This document shows positions 129 to 17,786 of a stretch of DNA of 20,000 nucleotides, piece by piece. Below the pieces are notes generated by a model, which made no database searches, was not told the origin of the DNA, and saw nothing but the letters and a program-made list of their open reading frames with translations. The position numbers and the translations under genes are program-made. The first letter of the stretch is position 1. The number at the start of each line of letters is the position of its first letter. Where the stretch lies: the sequence record SRR22947727_1208, one strand, 5' to 3'.

Positions 129-882
129 TCCTAATGTATTAAGAAAAAAAGTTATAGATATGGTCAGAGCAAAACAATCAGGACACATTGGTGGTTGTTT
201 TTCTATGGCTGAATTAACAAGTGTATTATATGAAGAATATGAAATGGGTGGTAGAGACAAGTTAATTTTATCTAAAGGACACGCAGTTCCCATCATATAT
301 GCAGCATTACACGAAATGGGTGAAATAACAGATGAAGAGTTAGATTTATTTAGAGAGATAGATTCACCATTACAAGGACATCCTGATAAAGAAAGACTAC
401 CTATATTAGACGCTACAACAGGTTCATTAGGACAAGGATTAAGTATTGCAATTGGACATTCACTTGGTAAGAAACTAAGAAACGAAGAGGGTAGTGTATT
501 TTGTGTAATGGGTGATGGTGAAATGCAAGAAGGTCAAGTTTGGGAATCTTTAATGTATTATCCAAAAACTAAAGAAACAAATCTAATTTGTATTATTGAT
601 TGGAACAAGGCACAAAATGATGGATACTCAGAAGATTTTAGTATTATGTATGAAAACTTACAAGAAAGAATATCATCTTTTGGTTGGGATACAAGAGTTA
701 TTGATGGCCACGATATGAAAAAAATATCAGATGAACTTAAAAATATTAATAATAAGCCAGTTTGTATAATATTAGATACTATTAAAGGTAAAGGAGTTTC
801 TTTTATGGAAGACCCAAGTTGGCATTGTAAAGTTCCTACCGATAGTGAGTATGAAATTGCAATGAAAGAGTTAGGAGTTTAA
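118..882 (+). CDS. tkt: Transketolase, N-terminal (ThDP-binding) subunit, copy 1
   Basis: Motifs SGHIGG, LSKGH, LQGHP, TGSLGQG, ThDP motif GDGEMQEG...IIDWN, TIKGKGVSFME..WH; AAGGAG RBS upstream. Confidence 0.95.
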   Translation: MKINPNVLRKKVIDMVRAKQSGHIGGCFSMAELTSVLYEEYEMGGRDKLILSKGHAVPIIYAALHEMGEITDEELDLFREIDSPLQGHPDKERLPILDATTGSLGQGLSIAIGHSLGKKLRNEEGSVFCVMGDGEMQEGQVWESLMYYPKTKETNLICIIDWNKAQNDGYSEDFSIMYENLQERISSFGWDTRVIDGHDMKKISDELKNINNKPVCIILDTIKGKGVSFMEDPSWHCKVPTDSEYEIAMKELGV

Positions 883-883
883 T

Positions 884-1819
884 ATGAAAGCTACAAGAGA
901 TGCGTTTGGAAACCACTTTCCAGCAATGGGTGATAAGTACGATAACATAGTCGCATTAGATGCAGACTTAGGTAAAGCCACTAAGATAGCTAGTTTTAAA
1001 GAATCTCATTCAGACAGATTTTTTCAAATGGGTATAGCAGAATCAAATATGATTGGAGTCGCTTCAGGTATATCAGAGTATGGTTACAAAGTATTCTTAG
1101 CTTCATTTGGTTCTTTTTTAACAGGTAGATATGACCAAATAAGATGTAGTTTAGCTTATTCTAATCGTCCTGTTGTTTTGGTTGGAACTCACGTTGGTAT
1201 GGCTATTGGTAAAGATGGTGTGACTCAAATGGCATTGGAAGACGTTAGTATTATGAGAGCTCTACCAAATATGAAAATATTAAATCCAGCATCTTATTCT
1301 GAAGCCATAAAGGTTATAGAATACTTATGTAAAACAGAATTAGATTCACCACATTATTTACGATTAGGTAGACAACCAGTTGAAGATATAGAAATGCCTT
1401 TTGAGTTTGGTAAAGGACAAATTGTAAAACAAACACACGCTATGTATGACATAACTTTATTTTCTACAGGCTGTATTTTAGGTGATGTAGTTGAAGCTAG
1501 TAATTTAATACAAAACAATTCATCACATAATGTTAGGGTTGTAAACTTACCAACAATAAAACCTATAGACAGGAAAATTATTATTGAATCTGCTAAACAA
1601 AGTAAATACTTATTTACGATTGAAGACCATTCAATAGTTGGAGGATTGGGTTCAGCAGTATCAGAGGTATTGACTGATGAGTGTCCTAAGAAACTTGTAA
1701 GAATTGGATTGAATGATGTATTTCCTGAATCAGCACCACCCAAAGATTTATATGAAAAATATGGTTTGAGTGCTGGACAACTAGCAAAGAGGATTTTAAG
1801 TGAATCAATGGATAAATAA
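884..1819 (+). CDS. tkt: Transketolase, C-terminal (pyrimidine-binding + C-terminal) subunit, copy 1
   Basis: Motifs ATRDAFG, LDADL, GIAESNM, GKDGVTQMALED, YLRLGR, TIKPID, TIEDHSIVGGLGSAV; AGGAG RBS. Confidence 0.95.
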   Translation: MKATRDAFGNHFPAMGDKYDNIVALDADLGKATKIASFKESHSDRFFQMGIAESNMIGVASGISEYGYKVFLASFGSFLTGRYDQIRCSLAYSNRPVVLVGTHVGMAIGKDGVTQMALEDVSIMRALPNMKILNPASYSEAIKVIEYLCKTELDSPHYLRLGRQPVEDIEMPFEFGKGQIVKQTHAMYDITLFSTGCILGDVVEASNLIQNNSSHNVRVVNLPTIKPIDRKIIIESAKQSKYLFTIEDHSIVGGLGSAVSEVLTDECPKKLVRIGLNDVFPESAPPKDLYEKYGLSAGQLAKRILSESMDK

Positions 1820-2441
1820 AGATACAGAAATATATTGTTCATTTGCTGAAACAGCTGGTAATACTGGTTGTCAGATGATGAACACTTCCTTTTACTATTA
1901 TGGTTTAAATAAAATATATAAATCATTTTCAGTAAGTAACATAGAGGAAGCCGTAAACGCAGTAAAGACTTTAAATATAAAAGGTTTTGCTATTACGATG
2001 CCTTACAAAACACAAGTGTTAGATTTTGTTGATAAGTGTGATGATGATGTAAAACAAATAGGAGCTGCAAATACTGTTCTTAATAATAATGGTGTATTAA
2101 CTGCATATAATACAGACTATTTAGCTGCTAGAACTTTTTTAGATAATAGTTTAGGATTAGATTTATATATTTTAGGAAATGGTGGTTATTCCAAAGCTGT
2201 TCAACAGGCAGCTAAGTCATTAGGTTATGATTACACTTTGGTGACTAGAGAAAATTGGGATATCATATCAAGTATTGGTGCAAATGTTATAGTTTATAAT
2301 TGTACTCCAGTAGAAGATATAAAAGTTAATACGAGTCAATTTATAGATTGTATAGTAACAACTAAAACAGGTAGAGAACTTGCTAGTATACAAGCTTCTC
2401 ATCAATTTAAACTTTACACAGGATTGGAGTTTCCTTTATGA
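1800..2441 (+). CDS. Shikimate-dehydrogenase (AroE)-like oxidoreductase, shortened
   Basis: GTG start after AGAGGA; motifs GFAITMPYK, IGAANT, AYNTD, ILGNGG, YNCTP, QASHQFKLYTG. Lacks the usual N-terminal SxSP motif. Confidence 0.8.
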   Translation: MNQWINKDTEIYCSFAETAGNTGCQMMNTSFYYYGLNKIYKSFSVSNIEEAVNAVKTLNIKGFAITMPYKTQVLDFVDKCDDDVKQIGAANTVLNNNGVLTAYNTDYLAARTFLDNSLGLDLYILGNGGYSKAVQQAAKSLGYDYTLVTRENWDIISSIGANVIVYNCTPVEDIKVNTSQFIDCIVTTKTGRELASIQASHQFKLYTGLEFPL

Positions 2442-3394
2442 GTGATATAAAATTTTACATAGGGCCTATGAGTAAAAATGTTGTTGATTCTGTTATAGAA
2501 TTAGATAATCCAATCGTTGGTTTTATACCATCAAGAAGACAAGTTGATTATGATGGTGGTTATGTAAATAATTGGACAACTAAACAATTTTCTGAGTATG
2601 TAAATAATAGAGTTGTGATACAAAGAGACCACGGCGGTGAAAGTCAAGGTAATAAACAAGATGGTGGATTAACTTCATTTTTATTTGACGCAAACTATTT
2701 TGATATTATTCACGTTGACCCCTGGAAAGCATATCAAGATTTTGATTTGGGATTACAAAACACTATTGATTGTATGAATTTTATCTATGATGAAGTTGGT
2801 AATAAGAAAGTTAAATTCGAAGTTGGTACAGAAGAATCCATAAGAAGATTTGAAGTTGATGAATTAGAAAAGTTATTATCATTATTAGAGAAAAAATTAA
2901 ATCCAAATATATTTGAAAATATAGTTTATGCAGTTGTACAATCTGGTGTTGGGTTGGACTTAGGTAATTCTAAAAATACCTGTGAATTTGGTGAAAAAAG
3001 ATTCTCTGATATGATTAAAGTTTGTAATAAGTTTGGTAAAAAGAGTAAAGAACATAATGGTGATTATTTATCTGTTGATGAATATAAATTAAGATTTGAT
3101 TTGGGGATGGATGCAATAAATATTGCACCACAATTTGGTCAGTTAGAAACATTATGTTACTTAGAAGAAATGGGTGATGATATAGAAGACTATTATAAAA
3201 TTTGTTATGATTCAAAAAGATGGGTAAAGTGGGTCAGTCAAGATTTTGTACCTGAAAATAATAAAAAAGAATTAATTAAAATTTGTGGACATTATGTTTT
3301 TTCTGATGATGAGTTTAAATCCATCGCACCAAATATTGATGATAAAATTAAAAAAAGTATTACAAATAGATTGTTAGAGATTACAAATGATTGA
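2438..3394 (+). CDS. GatZ/KbaZ-like (tagatose-6-phosphate epimerase / class II aldolase accessory family) TIM-barrel protein
   Basis: Ordered motifs RDHGG, IHVDP, EVGTE, VVQSGV, KEHNGDY correspond to GatZ-family GDHxGP, IHLD, IGTE, VVQPGV, EAHSTDY. Confidence 0.65.
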   Translation: MSDIKFYIGPMSKNVVDSVIELDNPIVGFIPSRRQVDYDGGYVNNWTTKQFSEYVNNRVVIQRDHGGESQGNKQDGGLTSFLFDANYFDIIHVDPWKAYQDFDLGLQNTIDCMNFIYDEVGNKKVKFEVGTEESIRRFEVDELEKLLSLLEKKLNPNIFENIVYAVVQSGVGLDLGNSKNTCEFGEKRFSDMIKVCNKFGKKSKEHNGDYLSVDEYKLRFDLGMDAINIAPQFGQLETLCYLEEMGDDIEDYYKICYDSKRWVKWVSQDFVPENNKKELIKICGHYVFSDDEFKSIAPNIDDKIKKSITNRLLEITND

Positions 3395-4241
3395 AAAATA
3401 TCTTAGTGTAGTTCAATGTCATATTTTATTTGATGATGAACGAGGTAGACAAAGATTAGAACATCAAAAATCCTACAAAGGGATACCATCATTTGGTAGT
3501 GTTTTTAATGATTGTGATTTCTTCGTAAATTATAAAACTACAACCTTTTTAGATGAAATAAAAGAGACATACGATAAACACATAAAAAATATAAATCTTT
3601 ATAACAATCTTGACGGGCCAGATTTTAATTGGACAACTACTATTTTAGCACTTGTGAATGAATCTAAAACACCTTATGTTATGTTAGCTACAGAGGATAG
3701 AATGTTTCACGAGACAAGTAGAGAAGAGTTTGAAAGAGTTATGCAAGATATTATAGATAATAACGTTTCTTATATGCCAATAGGTAAATTAGACCACTTA
3801 ACAGTAGGTACAAGATATAAAACAGTTGAAGAATTGATGAGTCCGAATAGAGTTCACGGGTATATGTGTGAGAAAAAATATAGAGATAGTGAAAAAGAAT
3901 TATTTTTATTTGAAGCTAAAGATTCTCCCATTAAGATTACCAGTTTTTCAGCAGATGCAATATATAAAAGAGAATTATTAATTGAAAAACTTGAAGAAAT
4001 GGTTAATGTGTATAAACTAAAACCAAATTCACCAAACAAATATTTTGAACAAAACACTTCAAAGTATTTTGAAGACTATTATTCAGATGATGGTAATAAT
4101 GGGCTTAGACAATGTGGAGATTTGTTATGTGCAGTTCCTAAAAGAGAGTTAGTGGTTTCAGATGAAACTCCAGGACAATCATATGGAACTATAGCAGAAA
4201 CTCCTGAAGAAATATTAAATATAGATGTTAGAAAAGGATGA
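3387..4241 (+). CDS. Hypothetical protein, putative GT-A-fold glycosyltransferase-like; paralog of 11940..12710
   Basis: Coupled ORF; TPYVMLATED resembles a beta-strand plus acidic motif of GT-A enzymes; clear similarity to 11940..12710. Confidence 0.5.
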   Translation: MIEKYLSVVQCHILFDDERGRQRLEHQKSYKGIPSFGSVFNDCDFFVNYKTTTFLDEIKETYDKHIKNINLYNNLDGPDFNWTTTILALVNESKTPYVMLATEDRMFHETSREEFERVMQDIIDNNVSYMPIGKLDHLTVGTRYKTVEELMSPNRVHGYMCEKKYRDSEKELFLFEAKDSPIKITSFSADAIYKRELLIEKLEEMVNVYKLKPNSPNKYFEQNTSKYFEDYYSDDGNNGLRQCGDLLCAVPKRELVVSDETPGQSYGTIAETPEEILNIDVRKG

Positions 4242-4245
4242 TGAT

Positions 4246-5901
4246 ATGAAAATACTTGGCTTTCAAAGTGGACACGATGTAGCATATTGTGTGTTAGATA
4301 ATGGCGTACCTGTCATACACGAGGAGTTAGAAAGATTTATTAGAGAGAAAGAACCATATGGAGATGGTTTAAAAATGGCTTTTGAAAGATTACCAGATGA
4401 TTTCTTTGATGACTTAAAAACATTTTGTTATGGTAATTTAAATACTAGACATCAAAAGTTTCCAGTTAATGAGGAAGAATATGATGCTAAGATGAAAGAC
4501 GTTATAAATAAAAATGATGGTAAACTATATGCCATTGGTCATCACCAATCTCACGCAGCTAATGCATTTTTCTCAAGTAATTTTGATGAAGCATTAATTA
4601 TAACTATTGATGGTAGTGGCACTGATAAAGTAGATTGGAAAGATTTTGAAAATGATTCTAAACAACAAGGTGACTCTAATTACTTTTCAACATCGTTTAC
4701 TTTTTGGAATGGTAAAGATTTAGATATTGAACCTATAAAAAGAATACCGATGCAAGAACTAACAATTGGTTCTCCGTGGCGAATATACACAAGAGAGATA
4801 TTTGGTCTTTCATCAGGTCATCCACACGGATTAGCCGCAGGAACTGTTATGGCGATGGCAGCACCAGGTGACCCAAGTAAGTATTGGAAAGATTTTTATG
4901 ATGCATTCTTAGCTGGGGGTGGTGGGCCGTCAGCACATACACAAAATAATATTGCTAAGTATAAACCAATAGCTAAAAGAAGTGAACAAGATGCTTTTGA
5001 TGTAGCAGCAGGTATTCAAAAGGCAACTGAAGAAGTTTGTAAAAAAATAATGACACCATATATTGAAGAGTATAATCCAAAACATATTTGTATGTCTGGT
5101 GGTGTGGTATTAAATTCAGTTATGGTTGGTAAGATGTATGATTGGTATCCAAATGTAGAACAAATATATATTTGTCCTGTTCCTTATGATGGTGGATTAG
5201 CAATTGGTTCTGCACAATACGTTTATCATCAAGTTCTGAGAAATCCACGTGTTAAATGGGAAGATAACTGTACGCCTTATTTAGGTAGTCATTATGATAA
5301 AAAAGATGTTTTAGATGTTATAAAAGAAAATGATAGTAAAATAGATTTTAGAGACACAGATGATGAAAATGTTGTGGACTTGTTAATGGAACAAAATATA
5401 ATTTCAGTATTTGGTGGTGGTTCAGAGTCAGGACGTAGAGCTCTTGGTAATAGAAGTATTTTATGTGACCCAAGAAGTCCTAATATGAAAGATAAAATAA
5501 ATGAAAAAGTAAAACATAGACAATGGTTTAGACCATTTGCACCATCAATTCTAAGAGATAGTGTTGGTGATTGGTTTGAAAAGGATGTTGATAGTCCTTA
5601 TATGACAACAGTTATTAAATGGAAAGATGAAGTTAAAGATAAAGTTCCAGCAGTTGTTCATTTAAATGGTACAGCTAGATTACAAACAGTTACAAAAAAT
5701 GATAACGAGTGGTACTATAATTTTATCAAAAAGTTCGAAGATAAAACAGGTGTACCAATCGTGTTAAATACAAGTTTTAATGACAGAGAACCTATTGTTG
5801 AAACACCTGAACACGCTATTAACTGTTTCTTAGGAACAAATATAGATTATTTATATTTTTATGAAGCTGGAATTTTAGTTAATAAAAAGAGAAAAATATA
5901 A
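4246..5901 (+). CDS. O-carbamoyltransferase (NodU/CmcH/TobZ family)
   Basis: Likely start MKILG at 4246; motifs GHD, HHQSHAA, IDGSG, SGGVVLN, DGGLAIG, ESGRRALGNRSIL, KHRQWFRPFAP, PAVVHLNGTARLQTV, LNTSFN. Confidence 0.95.
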   Translation: MKILGFQSGHDVAYCVLDNGVPVIHEELERFIREKEPYGDGLKMAFERLPDDFFDDLKTFCYGNLNTRHQKFPVNEEEYDAKMKDVINKNDGKLYAIGHHQSHAANAFFSSNFDEALIITIDGSGTDKVDWKDFENDSKQQGDSNYFSTSFTFWNGKDLDIEPIKRIPMQELTIGSPWRIYTREIFGLSSGHPHGLAAGTVMAMAAPGDPSKYWKDFYDAFLAGGGGPSAHTQNNIAKYKPIAKRSEQDAFDVAAGIQKATEEVCKKIMTPYIEEYNPKHICMSGGVVLNSVMVGKMYDWYPNVEQIYICPVPYDGGLAIGSAQYVYHQVLRNPRVKWEDNCTPYLGSHYDKKDVLDVIKENDSKIDFRDTDDENVVDLLMEQNIISVFGGGSESGRRALGNRSILCDPRSPNMKDKINEKVKHRQWFRPFAPSILRDSVGDWFEKDVDSPYMTTVIKWKDEVKDKVPAVVHLNGTARLQTVTKNDNEWYYNFIKKFEDKTGVPIVLNTSFNDREPIVETPEHAINCFLGTNIDYLYFYEAGILVNKKRKI

Positions 5902-6662
5902 TGAGAGCTGCTTTTTTGTTGAGTGGTGTAGTTGGTAAGTTTTACACTAATAAACAAGGATATGAATGGAGCGGTGATGTAGACTTCAGAATAGGTCATC
6001 ACTTTTTTAAAAAACATATTTTTGATGTAAATGATACAGTTGATGTTTTTATTCATTGTTGGGATACTCAATACGAAAAACAACTCACAGAATTATATCA
6101 GCCTAAGAAAAGTAAGTTTCAAGAACAAATTCAGTTTGATAATGAAATTATGCGTGGTAATTTTATAGAAAGTAGATGGTATAGTACAAAACAAGTAACA
6201 GAATTAAAAAAAGAATATGAAAAAGAAAATGATTTTACATATGATGTGGTGATGTCTTCCAGATTTGATGTGGGATTTTTTGAAGATTTAGTTTTTAATG
6301 AAGTTATGGAAGACCCTAACGCTATGTATATAGCTAAAAGTAATCCACCCAATCCACAAAAACCTACAATTTTAGATTATTGGTACTTTTCCTCATCTAA
6401 AAATATGGATATAATTAATAGTTTTCACGAACATTGGAAAGACTTAGGTCGTGGAACACCACATAGTGATTTATATATGTGGCCAACAAAAAATAATATT
6501 GATGTCTATATGATAGACAAATTTCAAGAGTCAGAAAAGGGAAATGGAAATACAGAAATAATAAGAGCTGTATTTGATGATTGTGAATATAAAGGTGATG
6601 ATTTTTCAGGTGTTGATAAGTTAAAAAGATTAAATAGATATCCGAGAGGCACTCGGTTTTAA
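5901..6662 (+). CDS. Hypothetical protein, probable glycosyltransferase-like protein
   Basis: TAATG coupling; pattern AFLLSG...DVFIHCWD...YDVVMSSRFD typical of uncharacterised GT-like proteins in glycan clusters. Confidence 0.5.
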   Translation: MRAAFLLSGVVGKFYTNKQGYEWSGDVDFRIGHHFFKKHIFDVNDTVDVFIHCWDTQYEKQLTELYQPKKSKFQEQIQFDNEIMRGNFIESRWYSTKQVTELKKEYEKENDFTYDVVMSSRFDVGFFEDLVFNEVMEDPNAMYIAKSNPPNPQKPTILDYWYFSSSKNMDIINSFHEHWKDLGRGTPHSDLYMWPTKNNIDVYMIDKFQESEKGNGNTEIIRAVFDDCEYKGDDFSGVDKLKRLNRYPRGTRF

Positions 6663-6687
6663 AAAAAATAATAAGTTTTTTTATTTT

Positions 6688-6711
6688 TTGTTGATATATA
6701 TTAATAAGAGA
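6688..6711 (+). promoter_or_regulatory. Putative promoter-like motif TTGTT(G)ATATATATnAnTAAGAGA, copy 1
   Basis: 21 of 24 aligned positions identical to 18430..18452; both are intergenic, follow A/T tracts and precede + strand genes. Confidence 0.5.
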
Positions 6712-6742
6712 AGTCAAAGTGGTAAACAGAGGACATTTGATT

Positions 6743-6796
6743 ATGTACCAAAGACCCAACCAACCACAGTTAGACTATAAACGGGGGCACTTTTAA
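6743..6796 (+). CDS. Putative leader peptide MYQRPNQPQLDYKRGHF (17 aa)
   Basis: GAGGA at 6729-6733, 9 nt before ATG 6743; stop TAA 6794-6796 lies in the loop of the hairpin 6783-6809. Confidence 0.5.
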   Translation: MYQRPNQPQLDYKRGHF

Positions 6797-6809
6797 ATAG
6801 AGTGTCCTC
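6783..6809 (+). promoter_or_regulatory. Putative antiterminator/anti-sequestering hairpin
   Basis: GGGGGCACTTT-TAAAT-AGAGTGTCCTC forms an 11-bp stem (with G-U pairs) and shares 6805-6809 with the downstream terminator stem. Confidence 0.6.
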
Positions 6810-6832
6810 CATTAATTGGAGGATTTTTTTTT
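6805..6832 (+). terminator. Intrinsic terminator / SD-sequestering hairpin
   Basis: TCCTCCA-TTAAT-TGGAGGA perfect 7-bp stem followed by T9. Confidence 0.75.
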
Positions 6833-6856
6833 ATGGTTACTAAAGAAGTTATTTGA
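6833..6856 (+). CDS. Putative mini-ORF MVTKEVI coupled to the radical SAM gene
   Basis: GGAGGA (6818-6823) 9 nt upstream of ATG 6833; its TGA overlaps the radical SAM ATG (TGATG at 6854-6858). Confidence 0.4.
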   Translation: MVTKEVI

Positions 6857-8388
6857 TGGATATTTTATTTATAAATCCAGGAAGTTCAGAAGAGGTTTAT
6901 CAGGGATTATCAACTGATTACGCTGGTATAGGAACACCTTATTGGGCATTATTGCTTTCACAATCTTGTAGATCACAAGGATACAAAGTTGGTATATTAG
7001 ATATTCTAGCAGAGGGTATCTCACGTAAAGATGCAGTAGAACGAATTAAAACACTAAACCCAAGATTAATATCAGTATGTGTTTATGGTGAAAATGTTAA
7101 TTCAGGAACTACTCAAATGAGTGGTGCAGTTAAGTTAGCTAATTTAATAAAAGAAAGTGGTGTAGATATACCAATATCATTTGTTGGTTCTCACGTTCAG
7201 GCATTACCATATAAAGTTTTAAGTGAAGAACCAAACATCGATATAATTTTTACAAATGAAGGTGTTTATTCATTGTGGAATATCCTAAAGTTAAAAGACT
7301 TAACGGATAAAAAACAATTAGAAACCATAAATGGTATAGGTTTTATAAAAGATGGTAAACCACATCTAAATCAACCTGAAAAAATAGTTCCTAATGATAG
7401 AATGGATTTAGATTTACCTGGTTATGCTTGGGATTTACTACCATATAAAGAGACACCTTTTGATTTATATCGTTCACCAATGTGGCACGGAGAGTACGAC
7501 CACGATAAGAGAACACCTTATGCTGCATTATACACCTCATTGGGTTGTGTATTTCAATGTGAGTTTTGTATGATTAACATATTAAACAGAGATGACAATG
7601 AAGAAATAGGTGTGGCTGGAAACTATAATAAAATGAGGTTTTGGTCACCTGAATTTATTATCAAAGAGTTTGATAAACTAATAGAAATGGGTGTAGAGAC
7701 CATCAGAATAGCTGATGAGATGTTTTTATTAAATCCTAAATACTATATACCTTTAGTTGATTTATTAGCTGAAAGAAATAAAAAAGATAATCTAAGAATA
7801 TGGGCTTATTCAAGAGTAGATACTATCAGAAGACCAGGTATCTTGAAAAATCTAAGAAAAGCTGGTATTAAATGGTTGTGTCTTGGTATTGAAAGTGCAG
7901 ACAGAAATGTTAGATTAGAAATATCAAAAGGAAAGTTTGAAGATGTTAATATTGTTGAAGTTGTAAATCAAATTCACGAGGCTGATATAGGTATTATAGC
8001 TAACTATATGTTTGGTTTACCTACTGATACTATGGAAACGATGGAAAAAACATTACAACTTAGTTACGAGTTATGTACAATAGCTTGGAATGCATACGCA
8101 GCTATGCCACTACCAGGTAGTCAGTTATATAAAGACGCAGTGGATAGAGGATTCAAATTACCTGAAGATTATGCTGGTTATTCATTTCACGCCTACACAA
8201 CACAACCATTACCTACTGATGAATTAACACCTGAACAAATCTTGAAGTTCAGAGATGAAGCCTATCTAAAATATCATACATACGAACCATTTTTAAATAA
8301 AGTTAGAGAAACTTATGGTGAAATAGCAGTTAATAATATTTTAGAAAATACTAAAATAAAATTAAAAAGAAAAATATTGGAGAATTAA
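6856..8388 (+). CDS. Cobalamin-binding radical SAM protein (class B methyltransferase-like)
   Basis: N-terminal B12-binding-like domain (ILFINP...GSHVQALP...EG), CxxxCxxC motif CVFQCEFC, ADE, LGIES, YMFGLP, PLPGSQLY. Confidence 0.9.
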   Translation: MDILFINPGSSEEVYQGLSTDYAGIGTPYWALLLSQSCRSQGYKVGILDILAEGISRKDAVERIKTLNPRLISVCVYGENVNSGTTQMSGAVKLANLIKESGVDIPISFVGSHVQALPYKVLSEEPNIDIIFTNEGVYSLWNILKLKDLTDKKQLETINGIGFIKDGKPHLNQPEKIVPNDRMDLDLPGYAWDLLPYKETPFDLYRSPMWHGEYDHDKRTPYAALYTSLGCVFQCEFCMINILNRDDNEEIGVAGNYNKMRFWSPEFIIKEFDKLIEMGVETIRIADEMFLLNPKYYIPLVDLLAERNKKDNLRIWAYSRVDTIRRPGILKNLRKAGIKWLCLGIESADRNVRLEISKGKFEDVNIVEVVNQIHEADIGIIANYMFGLPTDTMETMEKTLQLSYELCTIAWNAYAAMPLPGSQLYKDAVDRGFKLPEDYAGYSFHAYTTQPLPTDELTPEQILKFRDEAYLKYHTYEPFLNKVRETYGEIAVNNILENTKIKLKRKILEN

Positions 8389-8391
8389 ATT

Positions 8392-9159
8392 ATGAACAAT
8401 AGTGAATTACAAAAAATAGCAAAATCAGTTAGGAAAACTGTTTTTGAGTTTAAGACAAGAGATGGTATAGGACATTTACATAGTTCTCTGTCACCTGTTG
8501 ATGTATTGGTATCTTTATTTTATGATGATAAAACCGATTTTAATCACGAAAAAGATATAGTGATGTTTGGTAAGGCACACGGTTCACCATCCATTTATCC
8601 AATATTAGCAGATTTAGGTTATTTTCCTAAAGATGAGTTAGAAAAGTATTGTAGACCTGGTGGTATTTTAAGATTACATTCCGATTGGACAATTCCAGGC
8701 TGTCATTTTGTTGGTGGTTCTTTAGGTAATGGTATAGGATACGCTAGTGGATTAGCACAAGCTCAACCAGATAAAAATATATATATCATAATGGGTGATG
8801 CTGAATTATACGAAGGTTCAGTTTGGGAAAGTCTTATGTATATTTCACATCATAATTTATCAAATTTACGAATTATAATTGATAGAAACGGACTTGGAAC
8901 TATTGGTGAAACTGAGAAGATGTTAAAGTTAGAACCGTTACACGATAAGTTTCAGTCATTCGTTAATGATGTAGCAGAGATTGATGGACACGATTATGAT
9001 AGCTTAAGGGGTGTATTTTCAAATCAATCACCACAAGTTGTAATTGCTAAAACAACAAAGGGTAAGGGAGTTAGTTATATGGAAGGCAAGTGGGAATATC
9101 ACACTATAGTTCCATCAAGTGAAGAAGATATTAAAATTGGATTGGAGAATTTATCGTGA
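8392..9159 (+). CDS. Transketolase-like N-terminal subunit, copy 2 (divergent)
   Basis: GHLHSSLS, GKAH, GGSLGNG, variant ThDP motif GDAELYEG...IIDRN, TTKGKGVSYME..YH; GGAG RBS. Confidence 0.9.
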   Translation: MNNSELQKIAKSVRKTVFEFKTRDGIGHLHSSLSPVDVLVSLFYDDKTDFNHEKDIVMFGKAHGSPSIYPILADLGYFPKDELEKYCRPGGILRLHSDWTIPGCHFVGGSLGNGIGYASGLAQAQPDKNIYIIMGDAELYEGSVWESLMYISHHNLSNLRIIIDRNGLGTIGETEKMLKLEPLHDKFQSFVNDVAEIDGHDYDSLRGVFSNQSPQVVIAKTTKGKGVSYMEGKWEYHTIVPSSEEDIKIGLENLS

Positions 9160-10106
9160 CACAAAGAGATACATTTATTTCAGAATTATTTGAAATTGCA
9201 AAAAAAGATAAAGATGTTATATTAATTAGTGTTGATATGGGAGCATCTTCATTAGATAGATGGAGAGAAGAATTACCTGAACAATTTATTTGGACTGGTA
9301 TTTCAGAACAACATAGTATTAACTTAGCTGCTGGGTTATCAGCTGCTGGTAAAAAAGTATATGTTTATTTTATGGCAGCTTGGTCAGCAAGATGTTTTGA
9401 ACAAATAAGATATTCTTGTTCTATGCCAAATAATCCAATTACAATATTGTCTAACGGAGTAGCTTTAGGATACGCACCAGCAGGGCCAGCACACGAAACA
9501 AATGAAGATATAGCTTATATGAGGTCTTTGTTAAACGTTGAAATAGACTGTCCAGCTAGTTCAACTCACGTTAAAGAGTTAGTTAAATACTCATACGAAA
9601 ACCAAAAATTAAGATATATTAGATTGGAAAGAAAATATGATTCTAGGTTTGATGAAATCCGTACTCCTAATGGATTAGGATATTCTATAGTTAAGGGTGG
9701 CCTTTTTGGTAATCCAATGAGAAAAAAAGAAACTAAAATAGCTATAATATCGTATGGGTATATGTTAGGTAGATGTCTTGACGTACAAAAAAAATTATTA
9801 GATAATAATATGGAAGTTTCATTGTATAATATGTCAAAGATAAAACCTAATCCTATAGTGAAAATGAAGAAAGTATTCAGAGATTACGATAAAGTTATCA
9901 CAGTAGAAGAACAAACTTTATCAGGAGGGTTTGGTTCTGCTGTATTAGAGGGAATGTCAGATAATAATGTGCAAAAACCTTTACTACGAATAGGATTACC
10001 TGAAAGATATATTTTTGAAAATGGAGATAGAGATTACCACTTAGATAATAATGGATTATCAGTAGATTCAATTTACGATAAAGTGCTTAAATTTAGAAAT
10101 GAATAA
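9156..10106 (+). CDS. Transketolase-like C-terminal subunit, copy 2 (divergent)
   Basis: GTG start coupled by GTGA; QRDTF, SVDMG, GISEQ, AGPAH, YIRL, IKP, TVEEQTLSGGFGSAV. Confidence 0.9.
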   Translation: MTQRDTFISELFEIAKKDKDVILISVDMGASSLDRWREELPEQFIWTGISEQHSINLAAGLSAAGKKVYVYFMAAWSARCFEQIRYSCSMPNNPITILSNGVALGYAPAGPAHETNEDIAYMRSLLNVEIDCPASSTHVKELVKYSYENQKLRYIRLERKYDSRFDEIRTPNGLGYSIVKGGLFGNPMRKKETKIAIISYGYMLGRCLDVQKKLLDNNMEVSLYNMSKIKPNPIVKMKKVFRDYDKVITVEEQTLSGGFGSAVLEGMSDNNVQKPLLRIGLPERYIFENGDRDYHLDNNGLSVDSIYDKVLKFRNE

Positions 10107-11064
10107 TATTCTAATAACAGGTGGCACTGGTTTTGTTGGTAGTCATATGATTGACTACATCTTAAAACACGAAACCGATGTAAAAATATTTGCTACCAAA
10201 AGGTGGATGGAAGATACTAAGAATGTAGACCACGTTGATGACAAAAGATTTGAATTTGTGGATTGTGATTTACTTGATGGACTATCAGTTGAAAGAGCTA
10301 TCCAAATTTCAAAACCAAACAAGGTGTTTCATTTTGCAGCACAGAGTTTTCCAGAAGTTAGTTTTAAAACACCAGTTATTACTTTACAGACTAATGTTAT
10401 TGGCACTACTCATTTATTAGAATCAATAAAGAATTCAGATTATAATCCTGTTATAGTTAGTATTTCTTCATCTGAAGTTTATGGGATGCCAAAAGAAGAT
10501 GAGATACCAATCAAAGAAGATAATCCAATCAGACCTGCTAATCCATATTCAATATCAAAAGTAGGACACGATTTGATGTCACAATACTATCATAATGCAT
10601 ACGATATGAAAATTATAATTACTCGTATGTTTTCACACGAAGGAGCAAGAAGAGGTAAACAGTTTGCACTTTCTTCATTTGCACATCAAATTGTACAAAA
10701 TGAAAAGGGAAATGGTGATGGTTTTATTAGACACGGAAACTTAGAATCAGTTAGAACATACAATCACATAGAAGATGCAATAAGAGCATATTGGATATGT
10801 TCTGAAAGTGATAGGTTTGGAGAGATATATAATATCGGTGGTGATTATACTTGTAAGGTAGGAGATACATTAGATATGTTATTGTCAATGTCAACGTTAC
10901 TTGACTTAAAACCATTGTTAGATTCCGATAGGGTTAGACCCACAGACATAACTTTACAAATACCAAGCACAGATAAGTTTAAAAATCATTATGGTTGGGA
11001 GCCAAAAAAAGATTTAGGACATATTTGTGAAGATTTATTAAATTATTGGAGAGAGGCACTATGA
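10099..11064 (+). CDS. GDP-mannose 4,6-dehydratase / GDP-4-keto-6-deoxymannose reductase-like extended SDR
   Basis: ITGGTGFVG, FHFAAQS, SSSEVYG, YxxxK (YSISK), GNLESVR, RVRPTD. Confidence 0.85.
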   Translation: MNNILITGGTGFVGSHMIDYILKHETDVKIFATKRWMEDTKNVDHVDDKRFEFVDCDLLDGLSVERAIQISKPNKVFHFAAQSFPEVSFKTPVITLQTNVIGTTHLLESIKNSDYNPVIVSISSSEVYGMPKEDEIPIKEDNPIRPANPYSISKVGHDLMSQYYHNAYDMKIIITRMFSHEGARRGKQFALSSFAHQIVQNEKGNGDGFIRHGNLESVRTYNHIEDAIRAYWICSESDRFGEIYNIGGDYTCKVGDTLDMLLSMSTLLDLKPLLDSDRVRPTDITLQIPSTDKFKNHYGWEPKKDLGHICEDLLNYWREAL

Positions 11065-11537
11065 TTAAAGATGTATTGACATTTCAACCTGATAGACACG
11101 AGGATTTCAGAGGCGATATCTATACCAATTGGAAAAAAGAAGATTATCCTAATTTAAATTGGAGATTAGATAAATTTGCACATTCTCAAAAAAATGTTTT
11201 GAGAGGTTTACACGGAGATGATAAAACACACAAATTAATTAGTTGTGTGTATGGTAAGTTTTATTATGTATTAGCTGATAATAGAAAAGACTCACCCACA
11301 TATAAAACTTGGGATTCTTTCATATTATCTGCAGAAAATAGAAAACAAATATTGACACCTCCAGGATGTGCAGGATCGTATTTTGTTTTAAGTGATGAGT
11401 GTACTTTTCATTATAAGTTAGCTTTTGATGGAGATTACAATGATGTTCCTAACCAGTTCGTTATCAAATGGGATGACCCTGAATGGAATTTTGAATGGCC
11501 ACATAACAATCCAATATTATATGGGAGAGACAAATGA
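11061..11537 (+). CDS. rfbC: dTDP-4-dehydrorhamnose 3,5-epimerase (RmlC)-like protein
   Basis: Likely start ATG 11061 (ATGA coupling, GAGG RBS); DFRG, NVLRGLH, KLISC, DSPTY, PPGCA, YK, WDDP. Confidence 0.85.
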   Translation: MIKDVLTFQPDRHEDFRGDIYTNWKKEDYPNLNWRLDKFAHSQKNVLRGLHGDDKTHKLISCVYGKFYYVLADNRKDSPTYKTWDSFILSAENRKQILTPPGCAGSYFVLSDECTFHYKLAFDGDYNDVPNQFVIKWDDPEWNFEWPHNNPILYGRDK

Positions 11538-11935
11538 GTGAGAGAAAATGGTTACCGACATTAGGTGAATTGGTGGATAGACTTAGCATACATCAGTTAA
11601 AAGAGATTTTTATACCAGAGAATAAAGATAATTATGGTAAAGAAATAAATGATATGGTTCAAGATATTGATATGATTCTCAAAGAACATAAAGGTGAAAT
11701 AACAGGAGAAGTTATCAGAGCGATAATTGTACTTTCTCAGATGAATGCACACATTTGGTACAATGAGACAAAAGTTAGAAATGGTGATAAAGATGGTAAT
11801 CTACATTTAACTCACGGTATCAATGGTATAAGACAAACAGCTTCAAATAAGATTATGGAAGTAGTTGGTGGTAGAAAAGACTATAAGATAGATTGTATTG
11901 CAGCTGAATTTAAAGATTGGGAAATCAGTTGGTGA
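11534..11935 (+). CDS. Hypothetical helical protein
   Basis: ATGA-coupled ORF with GGAG RBS; LGELVDRLSI..LK pattern; function unknown. Confidence 0.7.
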   Translation: MSERKWLPTLGELVDRLSIHQLKEIFIPENKDNYGKEINDMVQDIDMILKEHKGEITGEVIRAIIVLSQMNAHIWYNETKVRNGDKDGNLHLTHGINGIRQTASNKIMEVVGGRKDYKIDCIAAEFKDWEISW

Positions 11936-11939
11936 TTAA

Positions 11940-12710
11940 ATGATAAGTGTGGTTCAAAACTTTATATGCACTATTCCAGAGAGATTAAAAATACTTGAGG
12001 ATAATTTACCAATAGTTGGTGATATTTGGGGTGATTATGAATTTTTTGTTAATTTTAATGATGAAGTTAATTTAGATGAAGTACATTCTCTTTATAAAAA
12101 ATATATACCAAAATTAAACTTCTATAATAATCTTGAAAAAGATTGGGCAGCAACAATGTTGTCTTTATTAAATGAGGTAACAACACCATATTCAGTTAAC
12201 ATAAATGAAGACCAACAGTTTTTATTAACTAAAGACGAATGGCAAAATGTTGTTGACGAAGCATTGGTAAAACACGAAGTTGATTTTTTATTAATAAATA
12301 AAATGGACAAATACAATAAAGAACCATATGTTAGTGGAGAGTTAGAACTTGGTGCATCTATTGTAAAGAATTATTGGGATAAGTATCCATCAGATGGTTA
12401 TGATGCGGGTGAATATGTTTATTTTCATAGTGGAAAATATTCACCTTACAAAAGAATAACACCAGAGGGAGTTCAAAAAACAGATTGGTTTAAATTTAGA
12501 TTTGAAGAGTTTTTAGAAAAAGGTGAAGACTGTGAACACGATATACCAATAAGATATAGACACGTTGGTAATTTCTTTGAGGGGTATTGGGATTTTGAAA
12601 ATGGCCCTTTTAGATTTCCAGATTATAAATTCGCAATACCTAAAAAAGATTTAATAGTTCAGTATGATACTATAAAAGAACAAAAACTTGGATGGAAAGC
12701 AAACTTATGA
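11940..12710 (+). CDS. Hypothetical protein, putative glycosyltransferase-like; paralog of 3387..4241
   Basis: Shared blocks SVVQ, FFVN, LDE, YNNL, W..T.L.L.NE..TPY....ED, FE.Y, PK..L.V. Confidence 0.5.
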   Translation: MISVVQNFICTIPERLKILEDNLPIVGDIWGDYEFFVNFNDEVNLDEVHSLYKKYIPKLNFYNNLEKDWAATMLSLLNEVTTPYSVNINEDQQFLLTKDEWQNVVDEALVKHEVDFLLINKMDKYNKEPYVSGELELGASIVKNYWDKYPSDGYDAGEYVYFHSGKYSPYKRITPEGVQKTDWFKFRFEEFLEKGEDCEHDIPIRYRHVGNFFEGYWDFENGPFRFPDYKFAIPKKDLIVQYDTIKEQKLGWKANL

Positions 12711-14437
12711 AAAGAATCAATATACAAGATATAGATTTAAATTCACTTGAGGTTATATTAGATAAAGCTGGAAGGTGGGTTGATGGTATAAATCACGGTA
12801 GAAAAATACTACGAGATAAAGATAGTTTTTATAAGGTATTTGATATGGAGTATTGTAGAAGACAAAACTTTATTGATGCATATGAGTTTGGTTTTTTTGA
12901 TGGATTAGCACCAGCATTAAAGTCATTAATAGTAGATGGTGATGATATAATTGGTTACATTACTGAAAGTGGACAACAACTATCAACATCAGAATTTGAT
13001 TTTGATTCAATACCAAAAGAATTTTATAAAAAGGTAATAGATGCCACGATTGTAAAGGAAATGTTTTTTTATGATTTAGTTCCAATAAATATAATAAAAA
13101 CAAAAGACGGAAAAATAAGTTTAATTGATTTAGAAAGTGTATATCCTATAGAAGAACTATTTCAGATAGATAAACACAACGCTAAAGTCAAACCAGATTT
13201 TTATTTTGAAGATTTGGAAAAAATATGGAAAGAGAATATGAAAGCGATAAGTTTTATTCAACCTAGTAGAAACAATTTAAAATACCTCAAATGGTCTTAT
13301 GATAGTATCAGAAAGAATTTAGGTTCACATCACGAGATATGTTGGGCAGATGATTATTCAGATGACGGAACGTGGGAGTGGATGAATGAGATAGCAGAAA
13401 AAGACCCAAATGTTAAGATACATAGAAACGAAGGGCCTAATAGGTTAGGTCATACAATACTTTATGATACTCTTGTAAATGACTACGCTACGAATGATAT
13501 CGTGATGATATATCACGCCGATATGTATGCTTGTCCTTATATGGATACGGAGATACTTAAATTAATAAAACCTGGCACTGTGGTATCCGCAACAAGAATC
13601 GAACCACCACTACATCCTGATGGGCCAGAAAAGATATTAAGAGACTTTGGAATAGAACCTGAAGAGTTTAAGGAAGATGAACTACTTGAATTTATGAACA
13701 GTACAGATACAGGTGCAAAACCAACAAAAGGTATATTTGCTCCGTGGGCTATATACAAGAAAGATTTCCAAGAGATAAATGGACACGACCCACTATACGC
13801 ACCACAATCAAAAGAAGATAGTGATATATTTAATAGATTTGTATTAAATGGTTATGAATTAATACAGACTTGGAAGGGGTTTGTATACCATATGACCTGT
13901 AGAGGTTCAAGATTTAAAGATGGAGCACTTAGAAATCCAGCTGGTCAAGTCTTTATGAAAGGTAGAGAATCATCAGAGTGGTTAGAACAAAATCTTAGAA
14001 GTACAAGAAACTTTATTCGTAAGTGGGGTCATATGGTTAAACACGATGAAATGATGTATCCGATTATACCACCGAAATATGATATTGGTTTTGTTGTAAA
14101 GAACTGTGATTATAATTTATTGAAAGAGTTAGAGCCTTGGTGTTCTACAATTTATATAGAATATACGGGTGTTATGGAGTCATATGTAAAACACGAACAA
14201 AAAGATACTGAATTTAATTTATCAGATAGAATTAAACATTCACATCAAAACAAACCAAATAATGATATTATAATTGAATTTGATGCTAAATTGTTAAATT
14301 CAAGTAATTTTCAAATATTAGTAGAGTTATCGTCAATACTTAAAGAAAGTGGTGAGGTTGGTGAAATGGAGTTAGAGATATTTAAATTTAACATTAATTC
14401 ATTAAAAACTTATGAAAAGGATTTAATAAAAGTATGA
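12707..14437 (+). CDS. Protein-kinase-like domain fused to a GT2-family glycosyltransferase
   Basis: Likely start 12707 (ATGA coupling). N-part: YKVF, GYITE, YDLVPINI, LIDLES. From Met at 13238: ISFIQPSRN, ADDYSDDGT, YHADMY, GHDP...ED, VYH. Confidence 0.8.
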   Translation: MKRINIQDIDLNSLEVILDKAGRWVDGINHGRKILRDKDSFYKVFDMEYCRRQNFIDAYEFGFFDGLAPALKSLIVDGDDIIGYITESGQQLSTSEFDFDSIPKEFYKKVIDATIVKEMFFYDLVPINIIKTKDGKISLIDLESVYPIEELFQIDKHNAKVKPDFYFEDLEKIWKENMKAISFIQPSRNNLKYLKWSYDSIRKNLGSHHEICWADDYSDDGTWEWMNEIAEKDPNVKIHRNEGPNRLGHTILYDTLVNDYATNDIVMIYHADMYACPYMDTEILKLIKPGTVVSATRIEPPLHPDGPEKILRDFGIEPEEFKEDELLEFMNSTDTGAKPTKGIFAPWAIYKKDFQEINGHDPLYAPQSKEDSDIFNRFVLNGYELIQTWKGFVYHMTCRGSRFKDGALRNPAGQVFMKGRESSEWLEQNLRSTRNFIRKWGHMVKHDEMMYPIIPPKYDIGFVVKNCDYNLLKELEPWCSTIYIEYTGVMESYVKHEQKDTEFNLSDRIKHSHQNKPNNDIIIEFDAKLLNSSNFQILVELSSILKESGEVGEMELEIFKFNINSLKTYEKDLIKV

Positions 14438-16602: not shown

Positions 16603-16618
16603 TAACAGGAGAGAGTAT

Positions 16619-16852: not shown

Positions 16853-16861
16853 GAGAAAGTT

Positions 16862-17664: not shown

Positions 17665-17711
17665 TATTTATATAGTAACGACCAACGATTCCTTCGTGGT
17701 TTATGACATAT

Positions 17712-17783: not shown

Positions 17784-17786
17784 TAA

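What the first reader, a model, noticed from the sequence alone, without database searches (positions are those of the whole stretch)
6688..6858. Leader-peptide attenuator / multi-state RNA switch upstream of the radical SAM-transketolase-2 module
Seen in sequence: the only real gap in a 15-kb coupled cluster contains, in order, a promoter-like motif, GAGGA plus a 17-codon ORF (MYQRPNQPQLDYKRGHF, 6743-6796), an 11-bp hairpin (6783-6809) whose loop holds that ORF's stop codon, and an overlapping terminator TCCTCCA-TTAAT-TGGAGGA-T9 (6805-6832). The segment GAGTGTCCTC (6800-6809) has three possible partners: 6783-6792; the terminator 3' arm; and GAGGACATTT (6729-6738, the leader's own SD, 7 Watson-Crick pairs extendable with wobbles). 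The two upstream partners differ only by transitions that preserve pairing. Established knowledge: this is the layout of ribosome-mediated attenuation, where a ribosome reaching the leader stop masks the antiterminator arm. Inference: stalling in the Gln/Pro-rich QRPNQPQ stretch, or a ligand, would allow read-through into a sugar-modification module. I do not recognise it as a described attenuator or riboswitch.
Basis: partly seen in the sequence, partly recalled or inferred. Interest (0 to 1): 0.8.

Follow-up and report, generated by a model that had tools for sequence, protein, structure and literature searches.

The report
Phage sugar-operon RNA switch leader

Summary
The window belongs to a T4-like marine phage. 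The gap at 6663-6855 is one member of an RNA family that is not in Rfam.

I collected 15 distinct variants in 5 subfamilies, from about 22 viral or metagenome contigs. Each contig carries one copy, and the copy always sits directly in front of a nucleotide-sugar enzyme gene.

All variants share these parts, in order:
- an AT-rich -10-like box;
- a stem domain (P1a, P1b, and a variable hairpin P2) with strictly conserved junction bases;
- a G-run;
- an antiterminator hairpin;
- an overlapping terminator. Its 3' arm (GGAGG) sits 6-10 nt before an ATG and so looks like a Shine-Dalgarno site.

P1b, P2, the antiterminator and the terminator all keep their pairing through compensatory changes. In the 15-variant alignment 99% of cells are paired, against 82% in shuffles (0 of 500 shuffles as high).

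The 17-codon ORF has an ATG only in the window and one close relative. In other variants it is frame-shifted or blocked by stop codons. The proposed third pairing partner lies in the variable hairpin P2.

I therefore reject leader-peptide attenuation. A cis-acting RNA switch, riboswitch-like with an unknown signal, is well supported. The closest known analogues are the orphan manA and wcaG motifs, but the wcaG model does not match.

The parts
6642..6660 (+). Short hairpin CCGAG-aggca-CTCGG plus TTTT that overlaps the stop codon of the upstream gene (5901-6662). It may be a weak terminator for the upstream unit.
   Evidence: Sequence. It is not kept in L037. On the + strand it was not listed by the terminator scan.
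6694..6707 (+). AT-rich -10-like box a few bases upstream of P1a; presumed promoter of the leader.
   Evidence: An AT-rich TATTTATA- or TATATAT-type box lies in the 20 nt before the element in 15 of 15 variants (column 'box'). Promoter activity was not tested. The box is not among the 60 promoter-like sites listed.
6712..6776 (+). Sensor-like stem domain. P1a is 6712-6715 / 6773-6776. P1b is 6719-6723 / 6763-6767. The variable hairpin P2 is 6731-6749. The conserved 3' junction strand AAAGACCCAACC is 6750-6761.
   Evidence: P1a is invariant in 15 of 15 variants. P1b has 3 of 5 pairs with changes on both sides, and P2 has 4 of 4. All three helices are 100% paired. The junction strand fits AAAG-N-CC-N-AACC in 15 of 15.
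6743..6796 (+). It is probably not a conserved coding feature.
   Evidence: An ATG-plus-SD ORF is present only in the window and L036, 2 of 8 variants checked.
6783..6809 (+). Antiterminator hairpin. The G-run 6783-6787 pairs with 6805-6809, and the upper stem is 6788-6792 / 6800-6804.
   Evidence: -13.9 kcal/mol. It forms in the nascent RNA and occupies 4-6 nt of the terminator's 5' arm in 8 of 8 variants. It is 92.9% paired, with 6 of 10 pairs changed on both sides, in 14 variants.
6805..6832 (+). Terminator-like hairpin TCCTCCA / TGGAGGA (6805-6811 / 6817-6823) plus U9 (6824-6832). Its 3' arm holds the Shine-Dalgarno-like GGAGG (6818-6822).
   Evidence: -11.2 kcal/mol. It is 97.1% paired, with 5 of 7 pairs changed on both sides, in 15 variants. 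A purine-rich arm lies 6-10 nt before an ATG in 15 of 15.
6833..6856 (+). 7-codon mini-ORF MVTKEVI. Its stop (TGA, or TAA in L036) overlaps the ATG of the radical SAM gene. It is probably a relic of the 5' end of the RmlC-like gene that follows the leader in other phages, and it now couples translation into the radical SAM gene.
   Evidence: Compare the gene starts MFKTNVTKSEVFPEV (L104) and MFESEVTVSEVFPEV (L110). In L037 the radical SAM ATG stands directly after the U-run.
6856..8388 (+). B12-binding radical SAM gene, the first gene under the leader in this phage.
   Evidence: Pfam Radical_SAM and B12-binding.

Best explanation
The gap holds a cis-acting regulatory RNA leader with its own promoter-like box. 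It heads the nucleotide-sugar operon of a T4-like marine phage.

Its 5' domain (P1a, P1b, variable P2, and conserved junction bases) is a sensor for an unknown small molecule or factor. Its 3' part is a two-state expression platform:
- State 1: the G-run 6783-6787 pairs with the pyrimidine-rich 6805-6809. This is the antiterminator. Transcription runs on and the GGAGG is free.
- State 2: 6805-6811 pairs with 6817-6823. This hairpin, followed by U9, stops transcription and hides the ribosome-binding site.

My inferred trigger is that the G-run is captured by the conserved CCNAACC strand of the sensor domain (6755-6761), forming a pseudoknot and releasing the terminator arm.

Shown: conservation, covariation, mutual exclusion of the two hairpins, and the gene association. 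Inferred: the promoter, the SD role, the pseudoknot, the identity of the signal, and the direction of the response.
For: Family:
- 15 distinct variants were found by a metagenome scan, DNA patterns and covariance models.
- There is one strong copy per record, including a 216-kb record rated 100% complete.

Structure:
- In the 15-variant alignment 99.0% of cells are paired, against 82.2% in shuffles.
- 12 of 20 pairs have changes on both sides.
- 0 of 500 shuffles reach either value, and slid controls give 37-49% pairing.
- The antiterminator is 92.9% paired, with 6 of 10 pairs changed on both sides.

Switch:
- In 8 of 8 variants the nascent antiterminator occupies 4-6 nt of the terminator's 5' arm.
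- With the G-run blocked, the full terminator folds at nearly equal energy: window -15.3, -15.8 and -16.4 kcal/mol.

Platform diversity: L138 keeps the hairpin and the GGGAGG but has no U-run, so it is translation-only. Riboswitch families show the same variation.

Ribosome-binding site:
- A purine-rich arm lies 6-10 nt before an ATG in 15 of 15 variants.
- Genes of the window use SD-like sites, 15 of 27 starts against an 11.5% background.

Gene association: the next gene is a nucleotide-sugar enzyme in 14 of 15 variants, and a sub-threshold transketolase-like match in L138.

Pseudoknot: the variable base of CCNAACC and the variable base of the G-run form C-G, A-U or U-A in 11 of 15 variants, which is 4 of 5 subfamilies.

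Read-through: one RNA-library contig (run X16, 151 nt, no mismatches) spans 6754-6904, across the terminator. This is a weak hint, because DNA can be present in such libraries.
Against: - No ligand or factor is known, and none can be tested here.
- The sensor domain and the antiterminator do not share a strand, so their coupling rests on the pseudoknot.
- The pseudoknot's duplex energy is no better than that of shuffled strands: 25-60% of shuffles are as good in 8 of 8 variants. Subfamily D shows a U-U mismatch.
- The covariation comes from only 5 subfamilies, on alignments fitted to the models, so independent events are few.
- P1a never varies, so it says nothing either way about pairing.
- The promoter was not confirmed.
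- The RNA data are sparse contigs only.
Confidence: 0.6

Rival explanations
1. Protein-controlled attenuation. The conserved stem domain and junction bases are the binding site of a phage or host RNA-binding protein, in the manner of PyrR, TRAP or BglG-type systems (named from recall). That protein decides between antiterminator and terminator, and no small molecule binds the RNA.
For: The structural evidence is the same as for the best explanation. The junction bases are highly conserved. T4-like phages time their genes through their own factors (general knowledge).
Against: No candidate RNA-binding protein gene was seen next to the element. Upstream neighbours differ between variants. No repeated short motif typical of such proteins is evident.
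Confidence: 0.2
2. A stand-alone small RNA gene. A promoter drives a structured RNA of about 120 nt that ends at the intrinsic terminator and acts in trans. The neighbouring gene is incidental.
For: There is a conserved AT-rich box upstream, and a strong hairpin with U7-9 at the end in 14 of 15 variants. Both transcript ends would be well defined.
Against: An ATG follows the U-run directly, with the GGAGG arm 6-10 nt before it, in 15 of 15 variants. The downstream genes have no room for their own promoter. L138 lacks the U-run but keeps the hairpin over the GGGAGG. The next gene is always of one functional class. The antiterminator that competes with the terminator is itself conserved.
Confidence: 0.1
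3. Ribosome-mediated leader-peptide attenuation. Translation of the 17-codon ORF up to its stop in the hairpin loop masks the antiterminator, and stalling in QRPNQPQ allows read-through.
For: In the window and L036 the ORF has an ATG, an upstream GAGGA and a stop in the hairpin loop.
Against: The ORF is not kept: 2 of 8 variants examined. L037 has no ATG and an earlier stop, L075 uses another frame, and L102, L110 and L112 have no ORF of 8 or more codons across the block. The conserved block is kept as nucleotides and not as codons. Its start region lies in the variable hairpin P2.
Confidence: 0.04
4. A constitutive junction. It is a plain terminator for the upstream unit plus a promoter and a stabilising 5' stem-loop, with no switching.
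For: Alone, the window sequence is not statistically unusual.
Against: The terminator lies downstream of the promoter-like box and directly before the start codon, so it would shut off the genes it precedes. The stem domain, junction bases and antiterminator are conserved with covariation in different gene contexts. 11 of 11 radical SAM loci without the element are joined to the preceding gene with a gap of at most 26 nt.
Confidence: 0.06

Closest known systems
wcaG RNA motif (Rfam RF01761) and manA RNA motif (RF01745), orphan riboswitch candidates (Weinberg et al. 2010, PMC2864571; passages read)
   Same: They are found almost only in marine metagenomes and T4-like phages. They lie in 5' UTRs of genes for exopolysaccharide or sugar metabolism. 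They are proposed to be cis-regulatory and possibly riboswitches, and their ligand is unknown.
   Different: The wcaG model gives no match at the element in 5 of 5 records carrying it; the best hits, at E = 2.7 or worse, lie elsewhere. All-Rfam scans, which include manA, give nothing at the element. The records searched here lack psbA (0 of 5). Their capsid protein is nearest to Microcystis and Flavobacterium phages at 50-55% identity, so they are not the classical cyanophages.
Transcription-terminating riboswitches with combined SD sequestration (general class; my own knowledge)
   Same: Both have a conserved structured 5' domain with a variable peripheral hairpin and conserved junction bases. 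Both have an antiterminator and terminator that exclude each other, and some members use a translation-only platform.
   Different: No ligand is known. The sensor's P1 does not overlap the antiterminator. Coupling would go through a pseudoknot that is only weakly supported.
Classical leader-peptide attenuators (trp, his, pheA type; my own knowledge)
   Same: Both have competing hairpins upstream of a terminator. In the window itself a short ORF ends inside the antiterminator.
   Different: The ORF is not conserved. The regulated genes are sugar-nucleotide enzymes and not amino-acid pathways.
csRNA catalogue from IMG/VR (Fremin et al. 2023, PMC10690425; passages and supplement files 3 and 5 searched)
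   Same: It is a large-scale list of candidate structured RNAs in phage contigs, some directly upstream of genes.
   Different: The only entry found upstream of SDR or GDP-mannose-dehydratase genes is DNAVirus_8349. It is 76 nt, mostly from freshwater, and assigned to Imitervirales, so it is a different thing. Supplement files 1 and 2 could not be searched, so presence of this family in the catalogue is not excluded.

Membership tests
Leader-peptide (ribosome-mediated) attenuator | A short translated ORF with start codon and ribosome-binding site, conserved among homologous leaders | tested here: not met
   An ATG-plus-SD ORF across the conserved block occurs in 2 of 8 variants.
Leader-peptide (ribosome-mediated) attenuator | Stall or stop codons placed so that the ribosome masks one arm of the alternative hairpins | tested here: not met
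   The stop lies in the hairpin loop in the window and L036. In L037 the same frame stops 7 codons earlier. L075 uses another frame. L102, L110 and L112 have no such ORF.
Leader-peptide (ribosome-mediated) attenuator | Mutually exclusive antiterminator and terminator | tested here: met
Riboswitch (as a kind) | A conserved structured domain supported by covariation, in the 5' UTR of functionally related genes | tested here: met
   99.0% paired, 12 of 20 pairs with double changes, 0 of 500 shuffles as high. The next gene is a nucleotide-sugar enzyme in 14 of 15 variants, plus one weak transketolase-like match.
Riboswitch (as a kind) | An expression platform whose alternative fold depends on the sensor domain | tested here: inconclusive
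   The platform is bistable. The link to the sensor rests on a pseudoknot with one covarying position, 11 of 15 variants, and an energy no better than shuffles.
Riboswitch (as a kind) | Direct, specific binding of a small molecule by the RNA | not testable with these tools
   This needs in-line probing, ITC or termination assays.
wcaG motif (RF01761) | Score at or above the Rfam gathering threshold (42 bits) | tested here: not met
   0 of 5 records are over the cut-off, and there is no hit at the element.
manA motif (RF01745) and all other Rfam 15 families | A match to the family's covariance model | tested here: not met
   There are 0 gathering-level hits in the window. Only chance-level hits (E of 2 or more) occur in 6400-7100. 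There are 0 hits at E of 5 or less in 5 other variants.
Intrinsic (Rho-independent) terminator | A G+C-rich hairpin directly followed by a U-run | tested here: met
   Window 6805-6832. A U-run of 6 or more follows the hairpin in 14 of 15 variants; L138 has none. Termination itself was not tested.

The most novel reading that the evidence does not exclude
This is a new riboswitch class carried by T4-like marine phages. It senses a nucleotide sugar, or a precursor nucleotide, of the glycan pathway it controls, through a pseudoknot between the CCNAACC junction strand and the G-run. It would be the first natural RNA sensor for a nucleotide sugar, and it would let the phage tune the making of its glycans to the host's sugar-nucleotide pool.
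Probability: 0.25. Interest if true: 0.85.

Novelty: new member of a known kind. Interest (0 to 1): 0.62.

Why it matters
Large marine phages carry long glycan-building gene clusters: more than 35 kb in the near-identical record G001. How these clusters are controlled is unknown.

A dedicated single-copy RNA leader with a terminator and ribosome-site switch suggests the phage regulates this pathway separately from its general early and late programme. It also gives a small, testable part of about 125 nt.

If a ligand is found, it would add a riboswitch class. It might also explain the orphan manA and wcaG motifs, which sit in similar places.

The family further shows that a short ORF in a leader can be a lineage-specific accident, which is a useful caution for sequence-only reading.

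Tried and rejected
- Giant-virus reading. Distant hits of the upstream gene fell on 447-kb and 617-kb viral records. I rejected this reading because genes overlap, SD-like sites are enriched, Gp23 is present in 4 of 5 related records, and PHROG hits are of phage type.
- The own genome and its relatives are not held.
- The element is not a feature of the radical SAM module: 11 of 11 other loci have no gap. Bacterial radical SAM relatives are only 25-30% identical and I did not study them further.
- Exact-pattern scans gave only the known records plus chance matches. In one search, 2 of 10 loci (L108, L111) were unrelated. In one search, 9 of 19 loci did not match the model.
- I did not follow the weak model hits at G011:105662 (E 0.74) and G002:69937 (E 0.07 and 0.18).
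- blastn of four variants against 50,697 deposited phage records found no homologue, only two short chance matches.
- RNA runs were available as assembled contigs only. Parts without cover (6690-6753 has no listed piece) say nothing. The oligo-dT run's pieces at 6657-6689 are low-complexity A/T matches with 3 mismatches. No transcript ends could be read.
- The pseudoknot's duplex energy is no better than shuffles.
- The conserved TATAAA inside the linker could be a phage promoter that starts transcripts at the G-run. I considered this and did not test it. The RNA-library contig that begins at 6754, upstream of it, does not favour it.
- The notes of this scan hold nothing on this sequence or genome.
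- Not-in-print check. Paper searches and the supplement look-ups found no description of this family. Supplement files 1 and 2 of PMC10690425 were not searchable.
Full report
**1. What is in the window**

- the ORF ATG 6743 to TAA 6794-6796 (MYQRPNQPQLDYKRGHF), preceded by GAGGA;
- a 10-pair hairpin 6783-6792 / 6800-6809, with 3 G-U pairs and the stop codon in its loop;
- TCCTCCA-TTAAT-TGGAGGA-T9 at 6805-6832.

ORFs are packed from 118 to 15668, and 6663-6855 is the only gap.

Two further details:
- The upstream gene ends in a small hairpin, CCGAG...CTCGG plus TTTT (6642-6660).
- Directly after the U-run there is a 7-codon ORF (6833-6856, MVTKEVI). Its stop overlaps the ATG of the radical SAM gene (6856).

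Taken alone the region is not statistically unusual:
- The fold has z = -0.99.
- Terminator-like sites number 6, against 5.6 expected.
- No Rfam family matches.

**2. Where the window comes from**

The window's assembly is a virus record. The nearest record held, G001, is 97.3% identical over 18.9 kb.

The evidence points to a bacteriophage and not a giant virus:
- Genes overlap by a few bases.
- SD-like 4-mers stand at -18 to -5 of 15 of 27 ORF starts, against 11.5% of all positions (P about 4e-8).
- PHROG hits are of phage type (exonuclease, HNH).
- The T4 major capsid family Gp23 is present in 4 of 5 related records, and psbA in 0 of 5.
- The capsid protein of the complete 216-kb relative G011 is nearest to Microcystis phage Mel-JY01 (55%) and Flavobacterium phage immuto (50%).

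The window plus the adjoining part of the near-identical record G001 carry a glycan cluster of more than 35 kb. It includes two split transketolase pairs, a carbamoyltransferase, the radical SAM enzyme, a GMD-like SDR, an RmlC-like epimerase and glycosyltransferases.

**3. The leader is not a property of the radical SAM module**

In 11 of 11 other viral loci with a radical SAM homologue (61-82% identity), the gene follows its neighbour with a gap of -1 to 26 nt. Only G001 has the 192-nt gap.

**4. Relatives with the same junction**

A metagenome scan with the upstream gene found three contigs with the same arrangement: L035 (99.97% nt), L036 (92.8%) and L037 (81.6%).

In L037:
- The flanking genes and the middle of the gap have diverged.
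- Several blocks are unchanged: CCAAAGACCCAACC(G)ACCAC, AGACTATAAA, CGGGGGCAC, GTGTCCTCCA and TGGAGGA-T8.
- The loops of both hairpins differ while the stems are kept.
- G6800 becomes A, turning a U-G pair into U-A.
- ATG 6743 is gone.
- The radical SAM ATG stands directly after the U-run, so GGAGGA acts as its ribosome-binding site.

**5. The family**

I found further copies in four steps:
- A pattern from the conserved block found the element in a different gene context: L075, between a methyltransferase-like ORF and an RmlC-like gene.
- Covariance model R1 found more diverged copies in records G004 and G007.
- Two looser patterns gave further loci.
- Model R2 confirmed which of those loci carry the element.

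In all there are 15 distinct sequences in 5 subfamilies:
- A: window (identical to G001 and L035), L036, L037, L075.
- B: L102, L104, L110, L112.
- C: L128, L143.
- D: L137, L151, L152, L154.
- E: L138.

They lie on about 22 contigs. Each record has one strong copy, including G011, which is rated 100% complete. Records G003, G005, G006, G008, G009 and G010 have none.

Misses:
- 2 of 10 loci were unrelated.
- 9 of 19 loci tested did not match the model.
- The hits other than the known records were chance matches.

**6. Anatomy (window coordinates)**

| Part | Coordinates | Comparison across variants |
|---|---|---|
| AT-rich -10-like box | 6694-6707 | An AT-rich box in 15 of 15 |
| P1a AGUC / GACU | 6712-6715 / 6773-6776 | Invariant |
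| P1b GUGGU / ACCAC | 6719-6723 / 6763-6767 | Also GUAGAG/CUCUAC, GUGGUG/CACCAC, GUAGUG/CACUAC, AUAGUG/CACUAU |
| Hairpin P2 | 6731-6749 | Variable in length and sequence; a 3-pair UUCG hairpin in subfamily D, nearly absent in L075 |
| Junction strand AAAG-N-CC-N-AACC | 6750-6761 | Conserved in 15 of 15 |
| Linker | 6777-6782 | ATAAA-type |
| G-run | 6783-6787 | GGGGG, GGUGG or GGAGG |
| Antiterminator | 6783-6809 | |
| Terminator plus U-run | 6805-6832 | |
| Start codon after the U-run | 6833 | |

**7. Structure tests**

On the model-made alignment of 15 variants:
- 99.0% of cells form standard pairs, against 82.2% in shuffles (0 of 500 as high).
- 12 of 20 pairs have changes on both sides; the shuffle mean is 7.8 (0 of 500 as high).
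- Sliding the partners by 1-3 columns gives 37-49% pairing.
- By helix, the pairs changed on both sides are P1a 0 of 4 (never varies), P1b 3 of 5, P2 4 of 4, and the terminator 5 of 7.

With a model carrying the antiterminator instead (14 of 15 variants matched; L138 did not), that helix is 92.9% paired, with 6 of 10 pairs changed on both sides.

Caveats: the alignments are fitted to the structures, and the sequences fall into 5 subfamilies. The number of independent events is therefore much smaller than the number of cells.

**8. The switch**

In 8 of 8 variants folded:
- The RNA made before the terminator's 3' arm forms the antiterminator, which occupies 4-6 nt of the terminator's 5' arm.
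- If the G-run is blocked, the complete terminator forms beside a shortened upper hairpin.
- The states are nearly equal in energy. For the window they are -15.3 (nascent antiterminator), -15.8 (G-run blocked) and -16.4 kcal/mol (whole platform).

The purine-rich 3' arm (GGAGG, GAAGG, GGAGA or GGGAGG) lies 6-10 nt before an ATG in 15 of 15 variants. In 13 of them that ATG starts the enzyme gene. In the window and L036 it starts the 7-codon ORF.

Two variants differ in the platform:
- L138 keeps the hairpin over GGGAGG but has no U-run, so it is a translation-only platform.
- L110 has a second hairpin, SD and U9 after the first.

**9. Genes under the leader**

| Downstream gene | Variants |
|---|---|
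| Radical SAM | window, L036, L037 |
| dTDP_sugar_isom (RmlC-like) | L075, L104, L110, L112 |
| GDP_Man_Dehyd / Epimerase SDR | L102, L128, L143, L137, L151, L152, L154 |
| Transketolase-like, below cut-off | L138 |

Sources. Pfam was run on representatives; L036, L037, L143, L151 and L152 are assigned by their near-identical protein starts or loci.

In the window, a GMD-like gene (10099) and an RmlC-like gene (11046) follow the radical SAM and transketolase genes. The mini-ORF MVTKEVI resembles the first codons of the RmlC-like genes (MFKTNVTKSEVF..., MFESEVTVSEVF...). I infer that the leader originally headed a GMD/RmlC operon, and that the radical SAM and transketolase module was inserted just behind its start codon.

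**10.

- An ATG-plus-SD ORF across the conserved block exists in 2 of 8 variants examined. The others lose the ATG, change frame or have no ORF of 8 or more codons across the block.
- The block is conserved as nucleotides, not as codons.
- The third partner, 6729-6738, is the 5' side of the variable hairpin P2. It pairs strongly with the terminator region only in the window and L036.

Leader-peptide attenuation is therefore not the conserved mechanism. The competing-hairpin part of the idea stands.

**11. How the sensor might talk to the platform (inference)**

The G-run can pair either with the terminator's 5' arm or with the junction strand CCNAACC. The second pairing is 5 pairs around an AA bulge and would form a pseudoknot.

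The two variable bases match as C-G (subfamily A), A-U (B) and U-A (C, E). They give U-U in subfamily D. That is 11 of 15 variants, or 4 of 5 subfamilies.

Against this, the duplex energy is no better than for shuffled strands: 25-60% of shuffles are as good. I keep this as the most likely coupling but rate it unproven.

**12. Expression data**

Only assembled contigs of RNA libraries were available. One 151-nt contig with no mismatches (run X16) spans 6754-6904, across the terminator. This is a weak hint of read-through, and DNA carry-over cannot be excluded.

**13. Comparison with known systems**

The nearest analogues are the manA and wcaG motifs. These are marine and T4-like-phage riboswitch candidates upstream of sugar and exopolysaccharide genes (PMC2864571, passages read).
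- The wcaG model does not hit the element in 5 of 5 records that carry it.
- Rfam-wide scans are empty.

The IMG/VR catalogue of candidate structured RNAs (PMC10690425) lists one entry upstream of SDR genes. It is 76 nt, mostly freshwater and assigned to Imitervirales. Two of its supplement files could not be searched.

No deposited phage genome carries the element by blastn.

**14. Verdict**

- The element is a new family of a known kind: a cis-regulatory leader RNA with a terminator and SD switch, possibly a riboswitch.
- It is restricted, so far, to marine T4-like phages and to their nucleotide-sugar genes.

Noticed in passing
window 6833-6856: A 7-codon ORF (MVTKEVI) starts right after the U-run, and its stop overlaps the radical SAM ATG (TGA here, TAA in L036). 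It resembles the first codons of the RmlC-like genes that follow the leader in L104 and L110. That suggests the radical SAM and transketolase module was inserted behind an older start codon. L037 lacks this ORF.
   Followed up: partly
window 118-15668 and G001 (L033): There is a glycan cluster of more than 35 kb on a T4-like phage. It includes two separate split-transketolase pairs (118-1819 and 8392-10106), a carbamoyltransferase (4225-5901), a B12 radical SAM enzyme, a GMD-like SDR, an RmlC-like epimerase, glycosyltransferases and several ORFs with no Pfam family (2438-4241, 5901-6662, 11534-12710).
   Followed up: partly
L110 / L118 (record G012), downstream of the element: This variant has two hairpins in tandem. 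The first is CCCUCC/GGGGGG with an imperfect U-run. The second is UCUCUC/GGGAGA with U9, followed by the ATG of the RmlC-like gene. It may be a duplicated platform.
   Followed up: no
L138: This variant keeps the SD-covering hairpin but has no U-run, so control would be of translation only. Its downstream gene has a weak transketolase-like match, below the Pfam cut-off.
   Followed up: partly
window 6642-6660: The upstream gene of unknown family (5901-6662) ends inside a 5-pair hairpin followed by TTTT. The hairpin is absent in L037. Its closest relatives outside this lineage are 37% identical or less in the metagenome scan and about 29% in viral records; they include hits on 447-kb and 617-kb viral records.
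   Followed up: no
window 17086-17664: An HNH endonuclease-like ORF and a run of small ORFs with no family follow the glycan cluster (16090-19556). Strong hairpins lie at 18610-18637 (minus strand) and 19619-19639.
   Followed up: no
G011:C1:105662-105777 and G002:C1:69937-70056: The family model gives weak hits here (E 0.07 to 0.74). The second lies just after the major capsid gene. These may be ordinary terminators.
   Followed up: no
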